A DNA stretch of 64,000 bases. It comes from Escherichia coli (lineage in GTDB: Bacteria > Pseudomonadota > Gammaproteobacteria > Enterobacterales > Enterobacteriaceae). The stretch lies in NCBI RefSeq assembly GCF_041886205.1, contig NZ_CP169029.1. One strand, 5' to 3'. The position numbers are program-made. Of the stretch, positions 6,001 to 9,000 are shown piece by piece. How positions within the stretch are numbered: position 1 is the first letter of the stretch; every line of letters starts with the position of its first letter.

Positions 6001-9000
6001 ACAATCGCAGGCGCTGCGTAGTATCTTTTTTGCCAGTACGGACGTGAAGAAAGATCCCGGCAGTGATGCGCCGCCTGCGCCATTAAACAGCGTGGGGATT
6101 TTAGGTGGTGGCTTGATGGGCGGCGGTATTGCTTATGTCACTGCTTGTAAAGCGGGGATTCCGGTCAGAATTAAAGATATCAACCCGCAGGGCATAAATC
6201 ATGCGCTGAAGTACAGTTGGGATCAGCTGGAGGGCAAAGTTCGCCGTCGTCATCTCAAAGCCAGCGAACGTGACAAACAGCTGGCATTAATCTCCGGAAC
6301 GACGGATTATCGCGGCTTTGCCCATCGCGATCTGATTATTGAAGCGGTGTTTGAAAATCTCGAATTAAAACAACAGATGGTGGCGGAAGTTGAGCAAAAT
6401 TGCGCCGCTCATACCATCTTTGCTTCGAATACGTCATCTTTACCGATTGGTGATATCGCCGCTCACGCCACGCGACCTGGGCAAGTTATCGGCCTGCATT
6501 TCTTCAGTCCGGTGGAAAAAATGCCGCTGGTGGAGATTATTCCTCATGCGGGTACATCAGCGCAAACCATCGCCACTACGGTAAAACTGGCGAAAAAACA
6601 GGGCAAAACGCCCATTGTCGTGCGTGACAAAGCCGGGTTTTACGTCAATCGCATCTTAGCGCCTTACATTAATGAAGCTATCCGCATGCTGACCGAAGGT
6701 GAACGGGTAGAGCACATCGATGCCGCACTAGTGAAATTTGGTTTTCCGGTAGGCCCAATCCAACTTTTGGATGAGGTAGGAATCGACACCGGGACTAAAA
6801 TTATTCCTGTACTGGAAGCTGCTTATGGAGAACGTTTTAGCGCGCCTGCAAATGTTGTTTCTTCAATTTTGAACGACGATCGCAAAGGCAGAAAAAATGG
6901 TCGGGGTTTCTATCTTTATGGTCAGAAAGGGCGTAAAAGCAAAAAACAGGTCGATCCCGCCATTTACCCGCTCATTGGCGCACAAGGGCAGGGGCGACTC
7001 TCCGCACCGCAGGTTGTTGAACGGTGTGTGATGTTGATGCTGAATGAAGCAGTACGTTGTGTTGAAGAGCAGGTTATCCGTAGCGTGCGTGACGGGGATA
7101 TTGGCGCGGTATTTGGCATTGGTTTTCCGCCATTTCTCGGTGGACCGTTCCGCTATATCGATTCTCTCGGCGCGGGCGAAGTGGTTGCAATAATGCAACG
7201 ACTTGCCACGCAGTATGGTTCCCGTTTTACCCCTTGCGAGCGTTTGGTCGAGATGGGCGCGCGTGGGGAAAGTTTTTGGAAAACAACTGCAACTGACCTG
7301 CAATAAGAAGGTCAAAGCTATATGAATCCGCGCTGAATGGCGGAGTGTTGGTCAAAATGTAAACGCATATTGACTATACTTACGCCATTGAGGTAAAAAA
7401 CAGCGTTTCATTCGGTGAATGGATAAGGCACAATGCCGGCCACCGTTTTCTTTCTCTGGTTTCAGATGAAAGAAAACGGGCGAATCTGGTTAACAAAAGC
7501 GGTGCAATATGCAAGTTTTTATCATGCGTCACGGCGACGCAGCCCTCGATGCCGCCAGTGATTCGGTTCGTCCTCTGACCACTAATGGTTGTGACGAATC
7601 TCGCCTGATGGCGAACTGGCTGAAAGGTCAAAAAGTGGAAATCGAACGCGTTCTGGTGAGCCCGTTCCTGCGAGCCGAGCAAACACTGGAAGAAGTAGGG
7701 GATTGTCTGAACCTGCCTTCCAGTGCAGAAGTTCTGCCGGAGTTAACGCCCTGCGGCGATGTTGGTCTGGTCAGTGCCTATTTACAGGCGTTGACCAATG
7801 AAGGTGTTGCTTCGGTACTGGTGATTTCTCACTTACCGTTAGTCGGGTATCTGGTTGCCGAGTTATGTCCGGGCGAAACGCCGCCTATGTTTACCACCTC
7901 GGCCATTGCCAGCGTAACGCTTGATGAAAGCGGAAACGGCACATTCAACTGGCAGATGAGCCCGTGTAATCTGAAGATGGCAAAAGCTATCTGATATCTT
8001 AGAAATATGCCCGATGGGATCACGTCATCGGGCATCTCCTTACGTTCCTCCTGGCTTTATTCACACATTCCCATTGATTAGGTGATTACTTTTTTGTGGG
8101 TTTATATTTCATATTTATATGAATGGCGGGTTTTTCCGGGAATGACATATCATGTGGCGGAGGGTTATTTAAGGAATGCACTGACATTTATTAGAGGAGC
8201 CTGTAACAATAGACACACGCAAATAAAATTTAAAAGGAGTTGTGTCTTGATATATATTATATATTACCTTTCATTAATTAACCGCTGAAAAAACCAGAAA
8301 ACGCACTTTTTTGTTGTTGCTTTCTTATTGCCCACATTTGTAATGTGGCCCATATGAATTTAACCGTTATGCAATAACTCCGTTCTGTATTCATAAGGAA
8401 TTCCTCAAAAAACATTGCCCTTCGTGATATTTTAAGTTTTACTTAAGATTATTTTTAGTAAAACTAATTTGAATTCATCGCCCAAAACTCCCACTATCGC
8501 CGCACACCAAAGAATATCATCTTATGCACACTTTTGCGGGAAGCAATGACGCATATTCGATGGTCATCTCTAAGCCGATCACTTCACTATTAATTTGAGG
8601 TTTTCCGGCGATTAAAATTTAATTATTTATGGTTTAAGGACAAATAATGAGTAAGTTTGTTAAAACTGCTATTGCAGCGGTGATGGTAATGGGTGCGTTC
8701 GCGTCAACTTCTTCCATCGCTGCCGGTAACAACGGTACCGCGCGTTTCTACGGCACCATCGAAGATTCCCCGTGCTCCATCGTGCCTGACGATCACAAAC
8801 TGGAAGTCGATATGGGCGATATCGGTTCTGAAAAACTGAAAGGCGGCAAATCAACCACCCCGAAAGAGTTCCAGATCCGCCTGCAGGACTGTGTGTTTGA
8901 TACCCAGACTAAGGCTTCGACCGTCTTCACCGGCACCATCTATACTGCGGTTTCTAACAGCAACAACTACACCATTTTCAGCACCGAAACCGGTATGCCA

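What the first reader, a model, noticed from the sequence alone, without database searches (positions are those of the whole stretch)
7443..7479. Perfect 12-bp inverted repeat in the fadJ-sixA spacer
ccgttttctttc and gaaagaaaacgg form a perfect 12-bp stem with a 13-nt loop, 137 nt after the fadJ stop and 30 nt before the sixA start. It lacks a U-tract on either strand, so it is not a canonical terminator. It could be an RNA processing or stability element, a 5-prime UTR structure controlling sixA, or a protein-binding palindrome.
Basis: seen in the sequence. Interest (0 to 1): 0.3.

Follow-up and report, generated by a model that had tools for sequence, protein, structure and literature searches.

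The report
Conserved hairpin in sixA mRNA leader
The inverted repeat is a real RNA hairpin inside the 5' untranslated leader of the E. coli sixA mRNA; it is kept as a hairpin across the Enterobacteriaceae while its sequence drifts, and a short leader RNA ends just after it, so it is probably an uncharacterised attenuator or 3'-end-protecting element rather than a chance palindrome or a protein-binding site.

Summary
Arms 7443-7454 and 7468-7479 are perfectly complementary, and as RNA the stem extends to 16 bp (-22.3 kcal/mol, z -4.3). The window is E. coli, with fadI, fadJ and sixA all on the + strand.

Published SMRT-Cappable-seq puts the sixA transcription start at window 7405/7406, so the hairpin lies at +39 to +75 of a 104-nt sixA leader. 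Published Term-seq puts RNA 3' ends at 7486 and 7488, which is 7-9 nt after the stem.

In 79 leaders from about 25 genera, the blocks on either side of the hairpin are as conserved as sixA codon positions 1 and 2. The hairpin itself is as variable as codon position 3. Even so, all 76 distinct versions fold as one 13-24 bp hairpin (mean z -3; a neighbouring control segment gives z about 0).

Changes in the stem are compensatory or go to G·U. The + strand folds better than the - strand in 71 of 76 cases, so selection acts on the sixA sense RNA, not on the DNA.

The best reading is a structural module of the leader that sets the 3' end of an 82-84-nt leader RNA. It would do this either as a weak, non-canonical attenuator or as a barrier to exonucleases. 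Which of the two applies, and whether it controls sixA, is untested. It has no Rfam family and no annotation. Interest is moderate.

The parts
7370..7399 (+). sixA promoter: -35 TTGACT (7370-7375), then a 17/18-nt spacer, then -10 GTAAAA/TAAAAA (7393-7399)
   Evidence: It sits at the right distance upstream of the mapped TSS. The block TTGACTATACTTACGCCATTGAGGTAAAAAACAGCG is nearly invariant in about 80 Enterobacteriaceae loci. The simple sigma-70 scan did not call it, because the -10 lacks the final T.
7405..7406 (+). sixA transcription start sites; the leader is 103-104 nt long
   Evidence: SMRT-Cappable-seq lists operon b2340 alone with TSS 2456916/2456915 on the reverse strand (PMC6131387 supplementary data 2). 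These were mapped to the window through the sixA ATG, 2456812 = 7509. That anchor was checked against the Term-seq flanking sequence.
7410..7424 (+). HP1, a small hairpin near the 5' end (AUUCG / UGGAU, 5-nt loop)
   Evidence: RNAalifold on 77 leaders. The closing pair 12/18 is A-U in 47, G-U in 24 and G-C in 5 sequences; the other pairs are nearly invariant.
7427..7437 (+). HP2, GGCA-CAA-UGCC, an invariant mini-hairpin (predicted only)
   Evidence: It appears in the single-sequence MFE. It is invariant apart from one loop base, so covariation cannot test it.
7443..7479 (+). HP3, the reported inverted repeat: a 12-bp perfect stem, plus 4 bp, a bulged U and a GUUU loop
   Evidence: The structure is conserved while sequence and length vary. 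Changes are compensatory within Escherichia and across genera. The + strand is preferred.
7486..7488 (+). RNA 3' ends of the short leader transcript, 7-9 nt after the stem
   Evidence: Term-seq in MG1655: 2456835(-) with 68,010 reads in the third sheet (M63 glucose, OD 0.4, by sheet order), and 2456833(-) with 39,893 reads in LB OD 2.0. The flanking sequences printed in the supplement match the window (PMC7815308 supplements 1 and 3).
7483..7519 (+). Nearly invariant 3' block and translation initiation region: AAUCUGGUUAAC, three consecutive ARN triplets AACAAAAGC (7492-7500), weak SD GGUG (7501-7504), AUG 7509, and a predicted weak hairpin at 7496-7519 that covers the SD and AUG
   Evidence: 77% of columns between the hairpin and the ATG are invariant in 79 sequences, which is more than at sixA codon positions 1 and 2. 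RNAalifold predicts the helix, but every pair is invariant, so it is untested.
7509..7994 (+). sixA coding sequence (phosphohistidine phosphatase SixA)
   Evidence: ORF list and RefSeq annotation of the identical E. coli locus.

Best explanation
The inverted repeat is transcribed as part of the sixA mRNA. It forms a stem-loop (HP3) at +39 to +75 of a 104-nt 5' leader.

Selection across Enterobacteriaceae keeps a single stable hairpin at this exact place, between two almost invariant leader blocks, and leaves its sequence and length free. It therefore acts through its shape, as RNA, on the sense strand.

In E. coli a discrete RNA 3' end forms 7-9 nt downstream of the stem, which gives an 82-84-nt leader RNA if that RNA starts at the sixA TSS. 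The most likely function is to set that 3' end. This could happen in two ways. The hairpin could be a weak, non-canonical transcription attenuator: a hairpin followed by the conserved U-containing tail (A/C)UUCUGGUU. Or it could be the barrier where 3'-to-5' exonucleases stop after termination or cleavage further downstream. Either way it would divide sixA transcription between a truncated leader RNA and full-length mRNA.

Shown: the hairpin, its position in the leader, the 3' ends, and RNA-level structural conservation.

Inferred: that the 3' ends belong to transcripts from the sixA promoter, that they arise by termination rather than trimming, and that sixA expression depends on the hairpin.
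For: - Position in the transcript: the sixA-only operon has its TSS at 2456915/6 = window 7406/7405, and fadI-fadJ is a separate operon.
- 3' ends lie at 7486 and 7488 with tens of thousands of Term-seq reads in two conditions. A distance of 7-9 nt from the stem fits both intrinsic termination and RNase II/PNPase stalling (established knowledge, from memory).
- All 76 distinct versions of the segment between the conserved anchors fold as one hairpin of 13-24 bp. Mean z is -2.95, against 0.03 for a neighbouring non-conserved segment.
- In sequence the hairpin is as variable as codon position 3 (majority fraction 0.61 vs 0.69). The flanks (0.93 and 0.97) match codon positions 1 and 2 (0.94 and 0.96).
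- Covariation within Escherichia: 95.8% of cells are paired, 3 pairs changed on both sides, and slid controls reach at most 54%.
- Covariation in the Enterobacter group: 97.7% paired.
- Covariation on the covariance-model alignment of 79 leaders: 14 of 15 HP3 pairs carry double-sided changes, 234 such cells against 87 +/- 9 in shuffles (0 of 500), and covariation 0.274 against at most 0.099 when slid (this alignment is fitted to the structure).
- Within E. coli, all sampled polymorphisms in 7425-7500 lie in the stem and keep pairing: three compensatory double changes in 2EC1 and N96, and G-C to G·U at 7477.
- Strand: the + strand RNA is more stable in 71 of 76 cases, by 5.5 kcal/mol on average (p 2e-13), with 199 G·U pairs against 74 on the - strand.
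- The hairpin is single-copy in 5425 of 5426 E. coli genomes.
Against: - There is no U-tract: 2-4 U in the 8 nt after the stem, and the terminator scan finds nothing. Efficient intrinsic termination is therefore doubtful.
- No convincing conserved antiterminator exists. The best candidate pairs the 3' side of HP1 with the 5' base of HP3, but it is weak (-6.9 kcal/mol for cognate pairs against -6.3 for non-cognate, p 0.006, confounded by phylogeny).
- The 3' end at 7486-7488 was not among the called ends in LB at OD 0.4.
- Term-seq cannot tell whether the ends come from the sixA promoter or from fadIJ read-through.
- Full-length sixA transcripts from the same TSS clearly exist, so any termination is partial.
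- No expression data link the hairpin to SixA levels.
Confidence: 0.55

Rival explanations
1. The hairpin is a passive stabiliser or folding insulator of the sixA leader. It keeps the invariant upstream block and the ribosome-binding region from mispairing, or sets their spacing and orientation for a bound factor. On this view the 3' ends at 7486/7488 are ordinary decay intermediates left where exonucleases stall, with no regulatory role.
For: Only the shape is conserved; sequence and length (36-59 nt between the anchors) vary freely, as expected of a spacer helix. There is no U-tract and no clear antiterminator. The single-stranded A-rich stretch after the stem carries three ARN triplets and a weak SD, and is invariant. 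Hairpin-protected 3' ends without U-tracts are common products of trimming (Adams et al. 2021 main text).
Against: The 3' ends are abundant and sharply defined in two conditions. The tail right after the stem, (A/C)UUCUGGUU, is itself strongly conserved, which a pure spacer does not need. This rival overlaps with the exonuclease-barrier half of the best explanation. The difference is only whether the truncated RNA, or the partition it represents, matters.
Confidence: 0.28
2. The hairpin is a back-up terminator or insulator for the upstream fadIJ operon. It stops read-through transcripts before they reach sixA.
For: It lies 137 nt after the fadJ stop. Term-seq cannot assign the 5' ends of the RNAs that finish at 7486/7488.
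Against: It lies downstream of the sixA TSS, so it would act on sixA's own transcripts as well. In E. coli the fadIJ transcript already has a 3' end at 7392, at the foot of a separate hairpin at 7333-7392 with an intrinsic-terminator score of 6.7. The position of HP3 is fixed relative to the sixA promoter and RBS blocks in all genera, whereas the fadJ-proximal spacer is not conserved.
Confidence: 0.08
3. The hairpin is unwound by ribosomes translating a leader peptide (uORF) that starts at one of the two conserved leader AUGs (7418 or 7433). This would couple translation of the leader to termination, or to sixA initiation, as in classical attenuation.
For: Two AUGs are conserved in the leader. 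The second has a UAAGG Shine-Dalgarno-like sequence 4 nt upstream. In E. coli it opens a 42-codon frame that runs through the hairpin into sixA.
Against: Across 77 leaders these frames end after 3 to more than 38 codons. Stops fall at unrelated positions, there is a 1-nt indel straight after AUG 2, AUG 1 is lost in seven leaders, and no peptide is conserved beyond the invariant nucleotides. There are no runs of regulatory codons.
Confidence: 0.05
4. It is a DNA-level element: a palindromic operator for a dimeric protein, a cruciform, or a copy of a repeated or mobile palindrome (REP-like).
For: The DNA symmetry is perfect in the reference E. coli sequence.
Against: Sequence is not conserved between genera, only pairing is. 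Pairing relies on G·U, which is a mismatch in DNA and on the other strand; the + strand is favoured in 71 of 76 cases. The commonest E. coli polymorphism found in the sampled variants, C7477T, breaks the DNA palindrome but keeps the RNA pair. The hairpin is single-copy in 5425 E. coli genomes by blastn with 11-nt words.
Confidence: 0.02

Closest known systems
5'-UTR RNA 3' ends and 5'-UTR-derived small RNAs catalogued by Term-seq in E. coli (Adams et al. 2021, eLife; for example ChiZ, IspZ)
   Same: An RNA 3' end inside a 5' UTR, just after a stem-loop, listed in that study's own tables for sixA (-21 and -23 from the ATG). The paper interprets the class as premature termination or processing that can leave stable by-products.
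   Different: The sixA entry is only a table row classed 'orphan'. It has no Northern, no Rho or intrinsic score (those were computed only for LB OD 0.4), no name and no function. I found no sixA entry in the held supplements of one RIL-seq-based sRNA prediction paper or one Hfq-CLASH paper, so trans-acting sRNA behaviour is unsupported.
Intrinsic (Rho-independent) terminators and attenuators
   Same: A stable stem-loop whose sequence drifts while pairing is kept. The RNA 3' end lies 7-9 nt after the stem. The downstream tail is conserved and contains U residues ((A/C)UUCUGGUU in most genera).
   Different: There is no run of U (2-4 U in 8 nt). The E. coli stem is A/U-rich. No demonstrable antiterminator or leader peptide exists, and read-through to full-length sixA mRNA is evident.
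Hairpin-protected 3' ends produced by exonuclease trimming after Rho-dependent termination or endonuclease cleavage (Dar & Sorek 2018, NAR)
   Same: A hairpin without a U-tract and a short single-stranded 3' overhang.
   Different: No Rho dependence was measured for this end. Such hairpins are not normally embedded between invariant leader blocks conserved across a whole bacterial family.
Structured 5' UTR stabilisers such as the ompA leader (a 5'-terminal hairpin plus a second hairpin before the RBS)
   Same: A hairpin near the 5' end (HP1), a second large hairpin about 30 nt before the start codon, and a single-stranded A-rich stretch in between that could bind Hfq or S1. This is a resemblance recalled from memory.
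   Different: No stability data exist for sixA. The ompA leader is not known for a discrete leader-length RNA.

Membership tests
Canonical intrinsic terminator | Stable stem-loop in the nascent RNA | tested here: met
   16-bp stem, -22.3 kcal/mol, z -4.3. A hairpin is present in all 76 distinct orthologous segments.
Canonical intrinsic terminator | U-tract (about 5 or more U in the 8 nt immediately after the stem) | tested here: not met
   The tail is GCGAAUCUGG in E. coli and (A/C)UUCUGGUU in most genera, giving 2-4 U in 8 nt. The terminator scan finds 0 sites in 7000-8300.
Canonical intrinsic terminator | RNA 3' end 7-9 nt downstream of the stem in vivo | tested here: met
   Term-seq 3' ends at 7486 and 7488; the stem ends at 7479.
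Canonical intrinsic terminator | Factor-independent termination in vitro | not testable with these tools
   Needs in vitro transcription.
Leader-peptide transcription attenuator (trp/his/phe type) | Conserved short leader ORF with regulatory codons | tested here: not met
   Frames from both leader AUGs vary from 3 to more than 38 codons, with shifting frames and stops.
Leader-peptide transcription attenuator (trp/his/phe type) | Mutually exclusive antiterminator that pairs with the 5' arm of the terminator | tested here: inconclusive
   Duplexes between the 3' side of HP1 and the 5' base of HP3 are slightly better for cognate than for non-cognate pairs (-6.86 vs -6.32 kcal/mol, permutation p 0.006). 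They are weak, and the test is confounded by phylogeny.
Any curated RNA family (Rfam 15) | Covariance-model match | tested here: not met
   Nothing overlaps the leader even at E <= 10 in 6800-8300.
5'-UTR-derived regulatory sRNA | Defined TSS and a defined 3' end within the 5' UTR | tested here: met
   TSS at 7405/7406 and 3' ends at 7486/7488. These come from separate experiments, so they are not linked on one molecule.
5'-UTR-derived regulatory sRNA | Chaperone association or trans targets | tested here: inconclusive
   No 'sixA' entry in the held supplements of Bar et al. 2021 or Iosub et al. 2020. The primary RIL-seq tables were not available.
Repeated extragenic palindromes (REP/BIME-like) or a mobile hairpin | Multiple copies per genome | tested here: not met
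   One place per genome in 5425 E. coli genomes. One covariance-model hit per locus in 531 kb.
Palindromic DNA operator | Conserved symmetric DNA sequence | tested here: not met
   Sequence differs between genera; pairing uses G·U and is strand-asymmetric.

The most novel reading that the evidence does not exclude
The whole sixA leader of about 104 nt would be an undescribed cis-regulatory RNA shared by the Enterobacteriaceae. Its almost invariant 5' block (HP1/HP2) and 3' block would be recognised by a protein, a small RNA or a metabolite. The variable hairpin would be the expression platform, deciding between a truncated 82-84-nt leader RNA and full-length sixA mRNA. This would set the level of the phosphohistidine phosphatase that resets ArcB and the nitrogen PTS (the SixA functions are from my own knowledge). 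The released leader RNA might also act in trans.
Probability: 0.2. Interest if true: 0.65.

Novelty: new member of a known kind. Interest (0 to 1): 0.4.

Why it matters
From my own knowledge, SixA is the only dedicated phosphohistidine phosphatase known in E. coli. It acts on the ArcB phosphorelay and on NPr of the nitrogen-related PTS. I found nothing in the searched literature on how sixA itself is regulated.

A leader whose flanking blocks are conserved as strongly as protein-coding positions, with a structure-only hairpin and a mapped leader-length RNA, is a concrete and testable candidate for post-initiation control of sixA. It is also a candidate new RNA motif in the best-studied bacterium.

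If it is only a decay-protecting hairpin, it is still a clean example of near-neutral sequence drift under a pure pairing constraint.

Tried and rejected
1. Rfam scan of 6800-8300 at E <= 10: no relevant family.
2. Leader-peptide hypothesis: rejected, because the frames are not conserved.
3. DNA palindrome, - strand RNA and repeated element: rejected on G·U asymmetry and copy number.
4. RNAalifold on a plain MAFFT alignment misses HP3, because the stems are not aligned column by column. I replaced it with per-sequence folding against a control, gap-free alignments within clades and a covariance-model alignment.
5. RybB seed pairing with the invariant sixA RBS block (recalled from memory; RybB identity confirmed): -14.4 kcal/mol, which is no better than 6-15% of shuffles and 7% of background windows. 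Dropped.
6. sigma-54-like GGCAC...GC spacing in HP2: discarded by eye, because a 1-nt indel between clades breaks the spacing.
7. Paralogous copies of the conserved leader block elsewhere in E. coli: none.
8. Literature and supplement searches:
   - No paper discusses the sixA leader.
   - Thomason 2015 and Melamed 2020 are not held.
   - The Dar & Sorek supplements are not held.
   - The Cappable-seq GTF is truncated before this locus.
9. Conservation outside Enterobacteriaceae could not be tested. The genome scan kept only the 80 closest loci and the protein search listed only hits of at least 76% identity.
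Full report
**Observation**

CCGTTTTCTTTC lies at 7443-7454 and GAAAGAAAACGG at 7468-7479, with 13 nt between them. Folded as RNA, the spacer adds four more pairs (UCUG/CAGA) around a GUUU loop, with U7467 bulged. This gives a 16-bp stem of -22.3 kcal/mol that none of 200 dinucleotide shuffles equals (z -4.3). Neither strand has a U-run after the stem, and the terminator scan finds nothing in 7000-8300. Perfect repeats of this size occur four times in the window, against 0.25 expected in shuffles.

**Context**

The window is E. coli. fadI and fadJ (5162-7306) and sixA (7509-7994) are all on the + strand. The 202-nt fadJ-sixA spacer is present once, unannotated, in 5425 of 5426 complete E. 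coli genomes. No Rfam family matches it even at E <= 10.

**Transcript map from published data**

SMRT-Cappable-seq (Yan et al. 2018, PMC6131387, supplementary data 2) lists b2340 (sixA) as an operon of its own, with start sites 2456916 and 2456915 on the reverse strand. fadI-fadJ is listed as a separate operon starting at 2460509.

I anchored genome coordinates to the window through the Term-seq flanking sequences, which give the sixA ATG as 2456812 = 7509. The start sites then fall at 7405/7406. That is a proper distance downstream of TTGACT (7370-7375) and GTAAAA/TAAAAA (7393-7399). The hairpin therefore lies at +39 to +75 of a 104-nt sixA leader.

Term-seq (Adams et al. 2021, PMC7815308, supplements 1 and 3) lists three 'orphan' 3' ends here:
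- 2456833(-), 39,893 reads, LB OD 2.0, -21 from the ATG = window 7488.
- 2456835(-), 68,010 reads, third sheet (M63 glucose OD 0.4, by sheet order), -23 = window 7486.
- 2456929(-), 32,337 reads, LB OD 0.4, -117 = window 7392.

The first two lie 7-9 nt after the last pair of the hairpin. If they belong to transcripts from the sixA start site, they define an RNA of 82-84 nt. The third lies upstream of the sixA start site, at the foot of a different, imperfect hairpin (7333-7392). It presumably marks the fadIJ transcript end.

**Comparative evidence**

A scan of one genome per species with the SixA protein returned 80 loci from about 25 Enterobacteriaceae genera. Two more came from Atlantibacter and Siccibacter.

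Upstream of sixA the pattern is striking. The promoter and the first ~38 nt of the leader are almost invariant: GCGTTTCATTC...GAATGGATaAGGCACAATGCC(C)GGCC. So are the ~26 nt before the ATG: (a/c)TTCTGGTTAACAAAAGCGGTGCAAT. The stretch between them differs in sequence and length (36-59 nt) from genus to genus.

Majority-base conservation:

| Region | Majority fraction |
|---|---|
| Leader 5' block | 0.93 |
| Leader 3' block | 0.97 |
| sixA codon position 1 | 0.94 |
| sixA codon position 2 | 0.96 |
| sixA codon position 3 | 0.69 |
| Hairpin segment (HP3) | 0.61 |

Even so, every one of 76 distinct versions of the variable segment folds as one hairpin of 13-24 bp. Mean z is -2.95, and 80% fall below -2. 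A non-conserved segment of similar size just upstream of the promoter gives mean z 0.03.

**Covariation**

- In a gap-free alignment of six Escherichia sequences, 95.8% of cells pair, three pairs changed on both sides, and slid controls reach at most 54%.
- In 20 sequences of the Enterobacter group, 97.7% pair, against at most 54% slid.
- A covariance model of the whole leader finds exactly one hit per locus in 531 kb.
- On its alignment of 79 leaders, 14 of 15 hairpin pairs carry double-sided changes. There are 234 such cells, against 87 +/- 9 in shuffles (0 of 500). The covariation score is 0.274, against at most 0.099 when partners are slid. That alignment is fitted to the structure, so these numbers lean towards it. 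The alignment-free and within-clade results do not have that bias.

Within E. coli itself, 4866 genomes are identical over 7425-7500, 536 differ at 1-3 positions and 23 at 4-7. All sampled variants change only the stem and keep pairing. C7477T turns G-C into G·U. The 2EC1/N96 type carries three compensatory double substitutions, CCGTCGTGTTTC/GAAACACGACGG.

**RNA or DNA, and which strand**

The + strand folds more stably than the - strand in 71 of 76 versions, by 5.5 kcal/mol on average (Wilcoxon p 2e-13). It has 199 G·U pairs, against 74 on the - strand. G·U pairs are mismatches in DNA and become C·A on the opposite strand. Selection therefore acts on the sixA sense RNA. This rules out a protein-binding palindrome, a cruciform and an antisense RNA. 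The hairpin is also not a repeated element.

**Rest of the leader**

RNAalifold supports a small hairpin near the 5' end at 7410-7424. Its closing pair is A-U in 47, G-U in 24 and G-C in 5 sequences. The GGCA-CAA-UGCC mini-hairpin (7427-7437) and a weak helix covering the SD and AUG (7496-7519) are predicted but invariant, so covariation cannot test them.

Two conserved AUGs open leader reading frames. Their lengths (3 to more than 38 codons), frames and stops are not conserved, so a leader peptide is unlikely.

**Mechanism**

What is established: a structure-only RNA hairpin at a fixed place in a highly constrained leader, and a discrete RNA 3' end 7-9 nt after it. Two routes give such an end.

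- Route 1 is premature termination at a weak, non-canonical terminator. The tail (A/C)UUCUGGUU is conserved and contains some U, but it is not a U-tract.
- Route 2 is termination or cleavage further downstream, followed by 3'-to-5' trimming that stalls a few nucleotides from the stem. This is known behaviour of RNase II and PNPase (from my own knowledge). Dar & Sorek 2018 and Adams et al. 2021 invoke it for many U-less hairpin ends.

I cannot separate the two routes with these tools. A possible alternative pairing between the 3' side of HP1 and the 5' base of the hairpin is only marginally better in cognate than in non-cognate combinations (-6.86 vs -6.32 kcal/mol, p 0.006). I treat it as a lead, not a finding.

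I put the combined reading, a hairpin that sets the 3' end of a leader RNA and so divides sixA transcription, at about 0.55. A purely architectural or stabilising helix whose 3' ends are incidental is at about 0.28. A fadIJ back-up terminator is at about 0.08, a uORF-coupled device at about 0.05 and a DNA element at about 0.02.

**Comparison with what is known**

The nearest published class is the set of 5'-UTR 3' ends and 5'-UTR-derived RNAs catalogued by Adams et al. The sixA ends are rows in their tables, but I found no text, name or experiment on them.

The element fails the U-tract test for a canonical intrinsic terminator and the leader-ORF test for a classical attenuator. It matches no Rfam family. 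The held supplements of one RIL-seq-based prediction paper and one Hfq-CLASH paper have no sixA entry. I therefore file it as a new, uncharacterised member of a known kind: structured 5' leaders with a leader-length RNA.

**Limits**

- The start site and the 3' ends come from different experiments and are not linked on single molecules.
- Conservation was tested only within Enterobacteriaceae.
- No expression data were available.

**Verdict**

It is an RNA-level, family-wide conserved hairpin in the sixA leader, tied to a mapped RNA 3' end. Interest is moderate (0.4). It would rise if the invariant leader proves to be a sensor.

Noticed in passing
window 7333-7392: A second, imperfect long hairpin (27-nt arms, 70% complementary) lies right after fadJ. 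Its 3' arm is the -35 box and spacer of the sixA promoter. A Term-seq 3' end (2456929, LB OD 0.4, intrinsic-terminator score 6.7, Rho score 1.0) maps exactly to its foot at 7392. It is strong in Escherichia (z -4 to -6) but not conserved across the family (mean z -1.2). The fadIJ transcript end and the sixA promoter therefore overlap in E. coli.
   Followed up: partly
window 7359-7442 and 7483-7523: The sixA promoter, the leader blocks and the first 15 coding nucleotides are about as conserved as, or more conserved than, codon positions 1 and 2 of sixA across about 25 genera. Synonymous sites of codons 2 and 3 are almost invariant. That is far more constraint than a promoter plus RBS usually shows. 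No binding factor is known.
   Followed up: partly
window 7496-7519: A predicted weak helix, AAAGC..GUUUU plus UGCA-AUA-UGCA, would sequester the weak SD (GGUG) and the AUG of sixA. All pairs are invariant in 79 sequences, so it can be neither supported nor refuted by covariation.
   Followed up: partly
window 1630-1658: A perfect 13-bp inverted repeat with a 3-nt loop (TAAAGTCACCTGC ATA GCAGGTGACTTTA). It matches the sequence printed for the 'primary' fadL 3' end (2462694, +) in the Term-seq table, so it is the fadL terminator on the window's - strand.
   Followed up: partly
window 29483-29517 and 47330-47356: Two further perfect 12-bp inverted repeats: TTTCAGGCTGTA / TACAGCCTGAAA with an 11-nt loop, and AACCGGAAATAG / CTATTTCCGGTT with a 3-nt loop. 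Neither was examined.
   Followed up: no
protein P0107 (and other SixA database entries of 173-223 aa): Some database SixA proteins are N-terminally extended because gene callers started at the conserved leader AUG (MPD...) where it happens to be in frame with sixA. These are likely mis-annotated starts rather than real isoforms.
   Followed up: no
window 3702-5162: The longest fadI ORF starts at a TTG at 3702 (486 aa). RefSeq annotates fadI as 436 aa, equivalent to a start at about 3852. The published fadIJ TSS (2460509) maps about 40 nt upstream of the annotated start and so lies inside the longer ORF, which supports the shorter annotation.
   Followed up: partly
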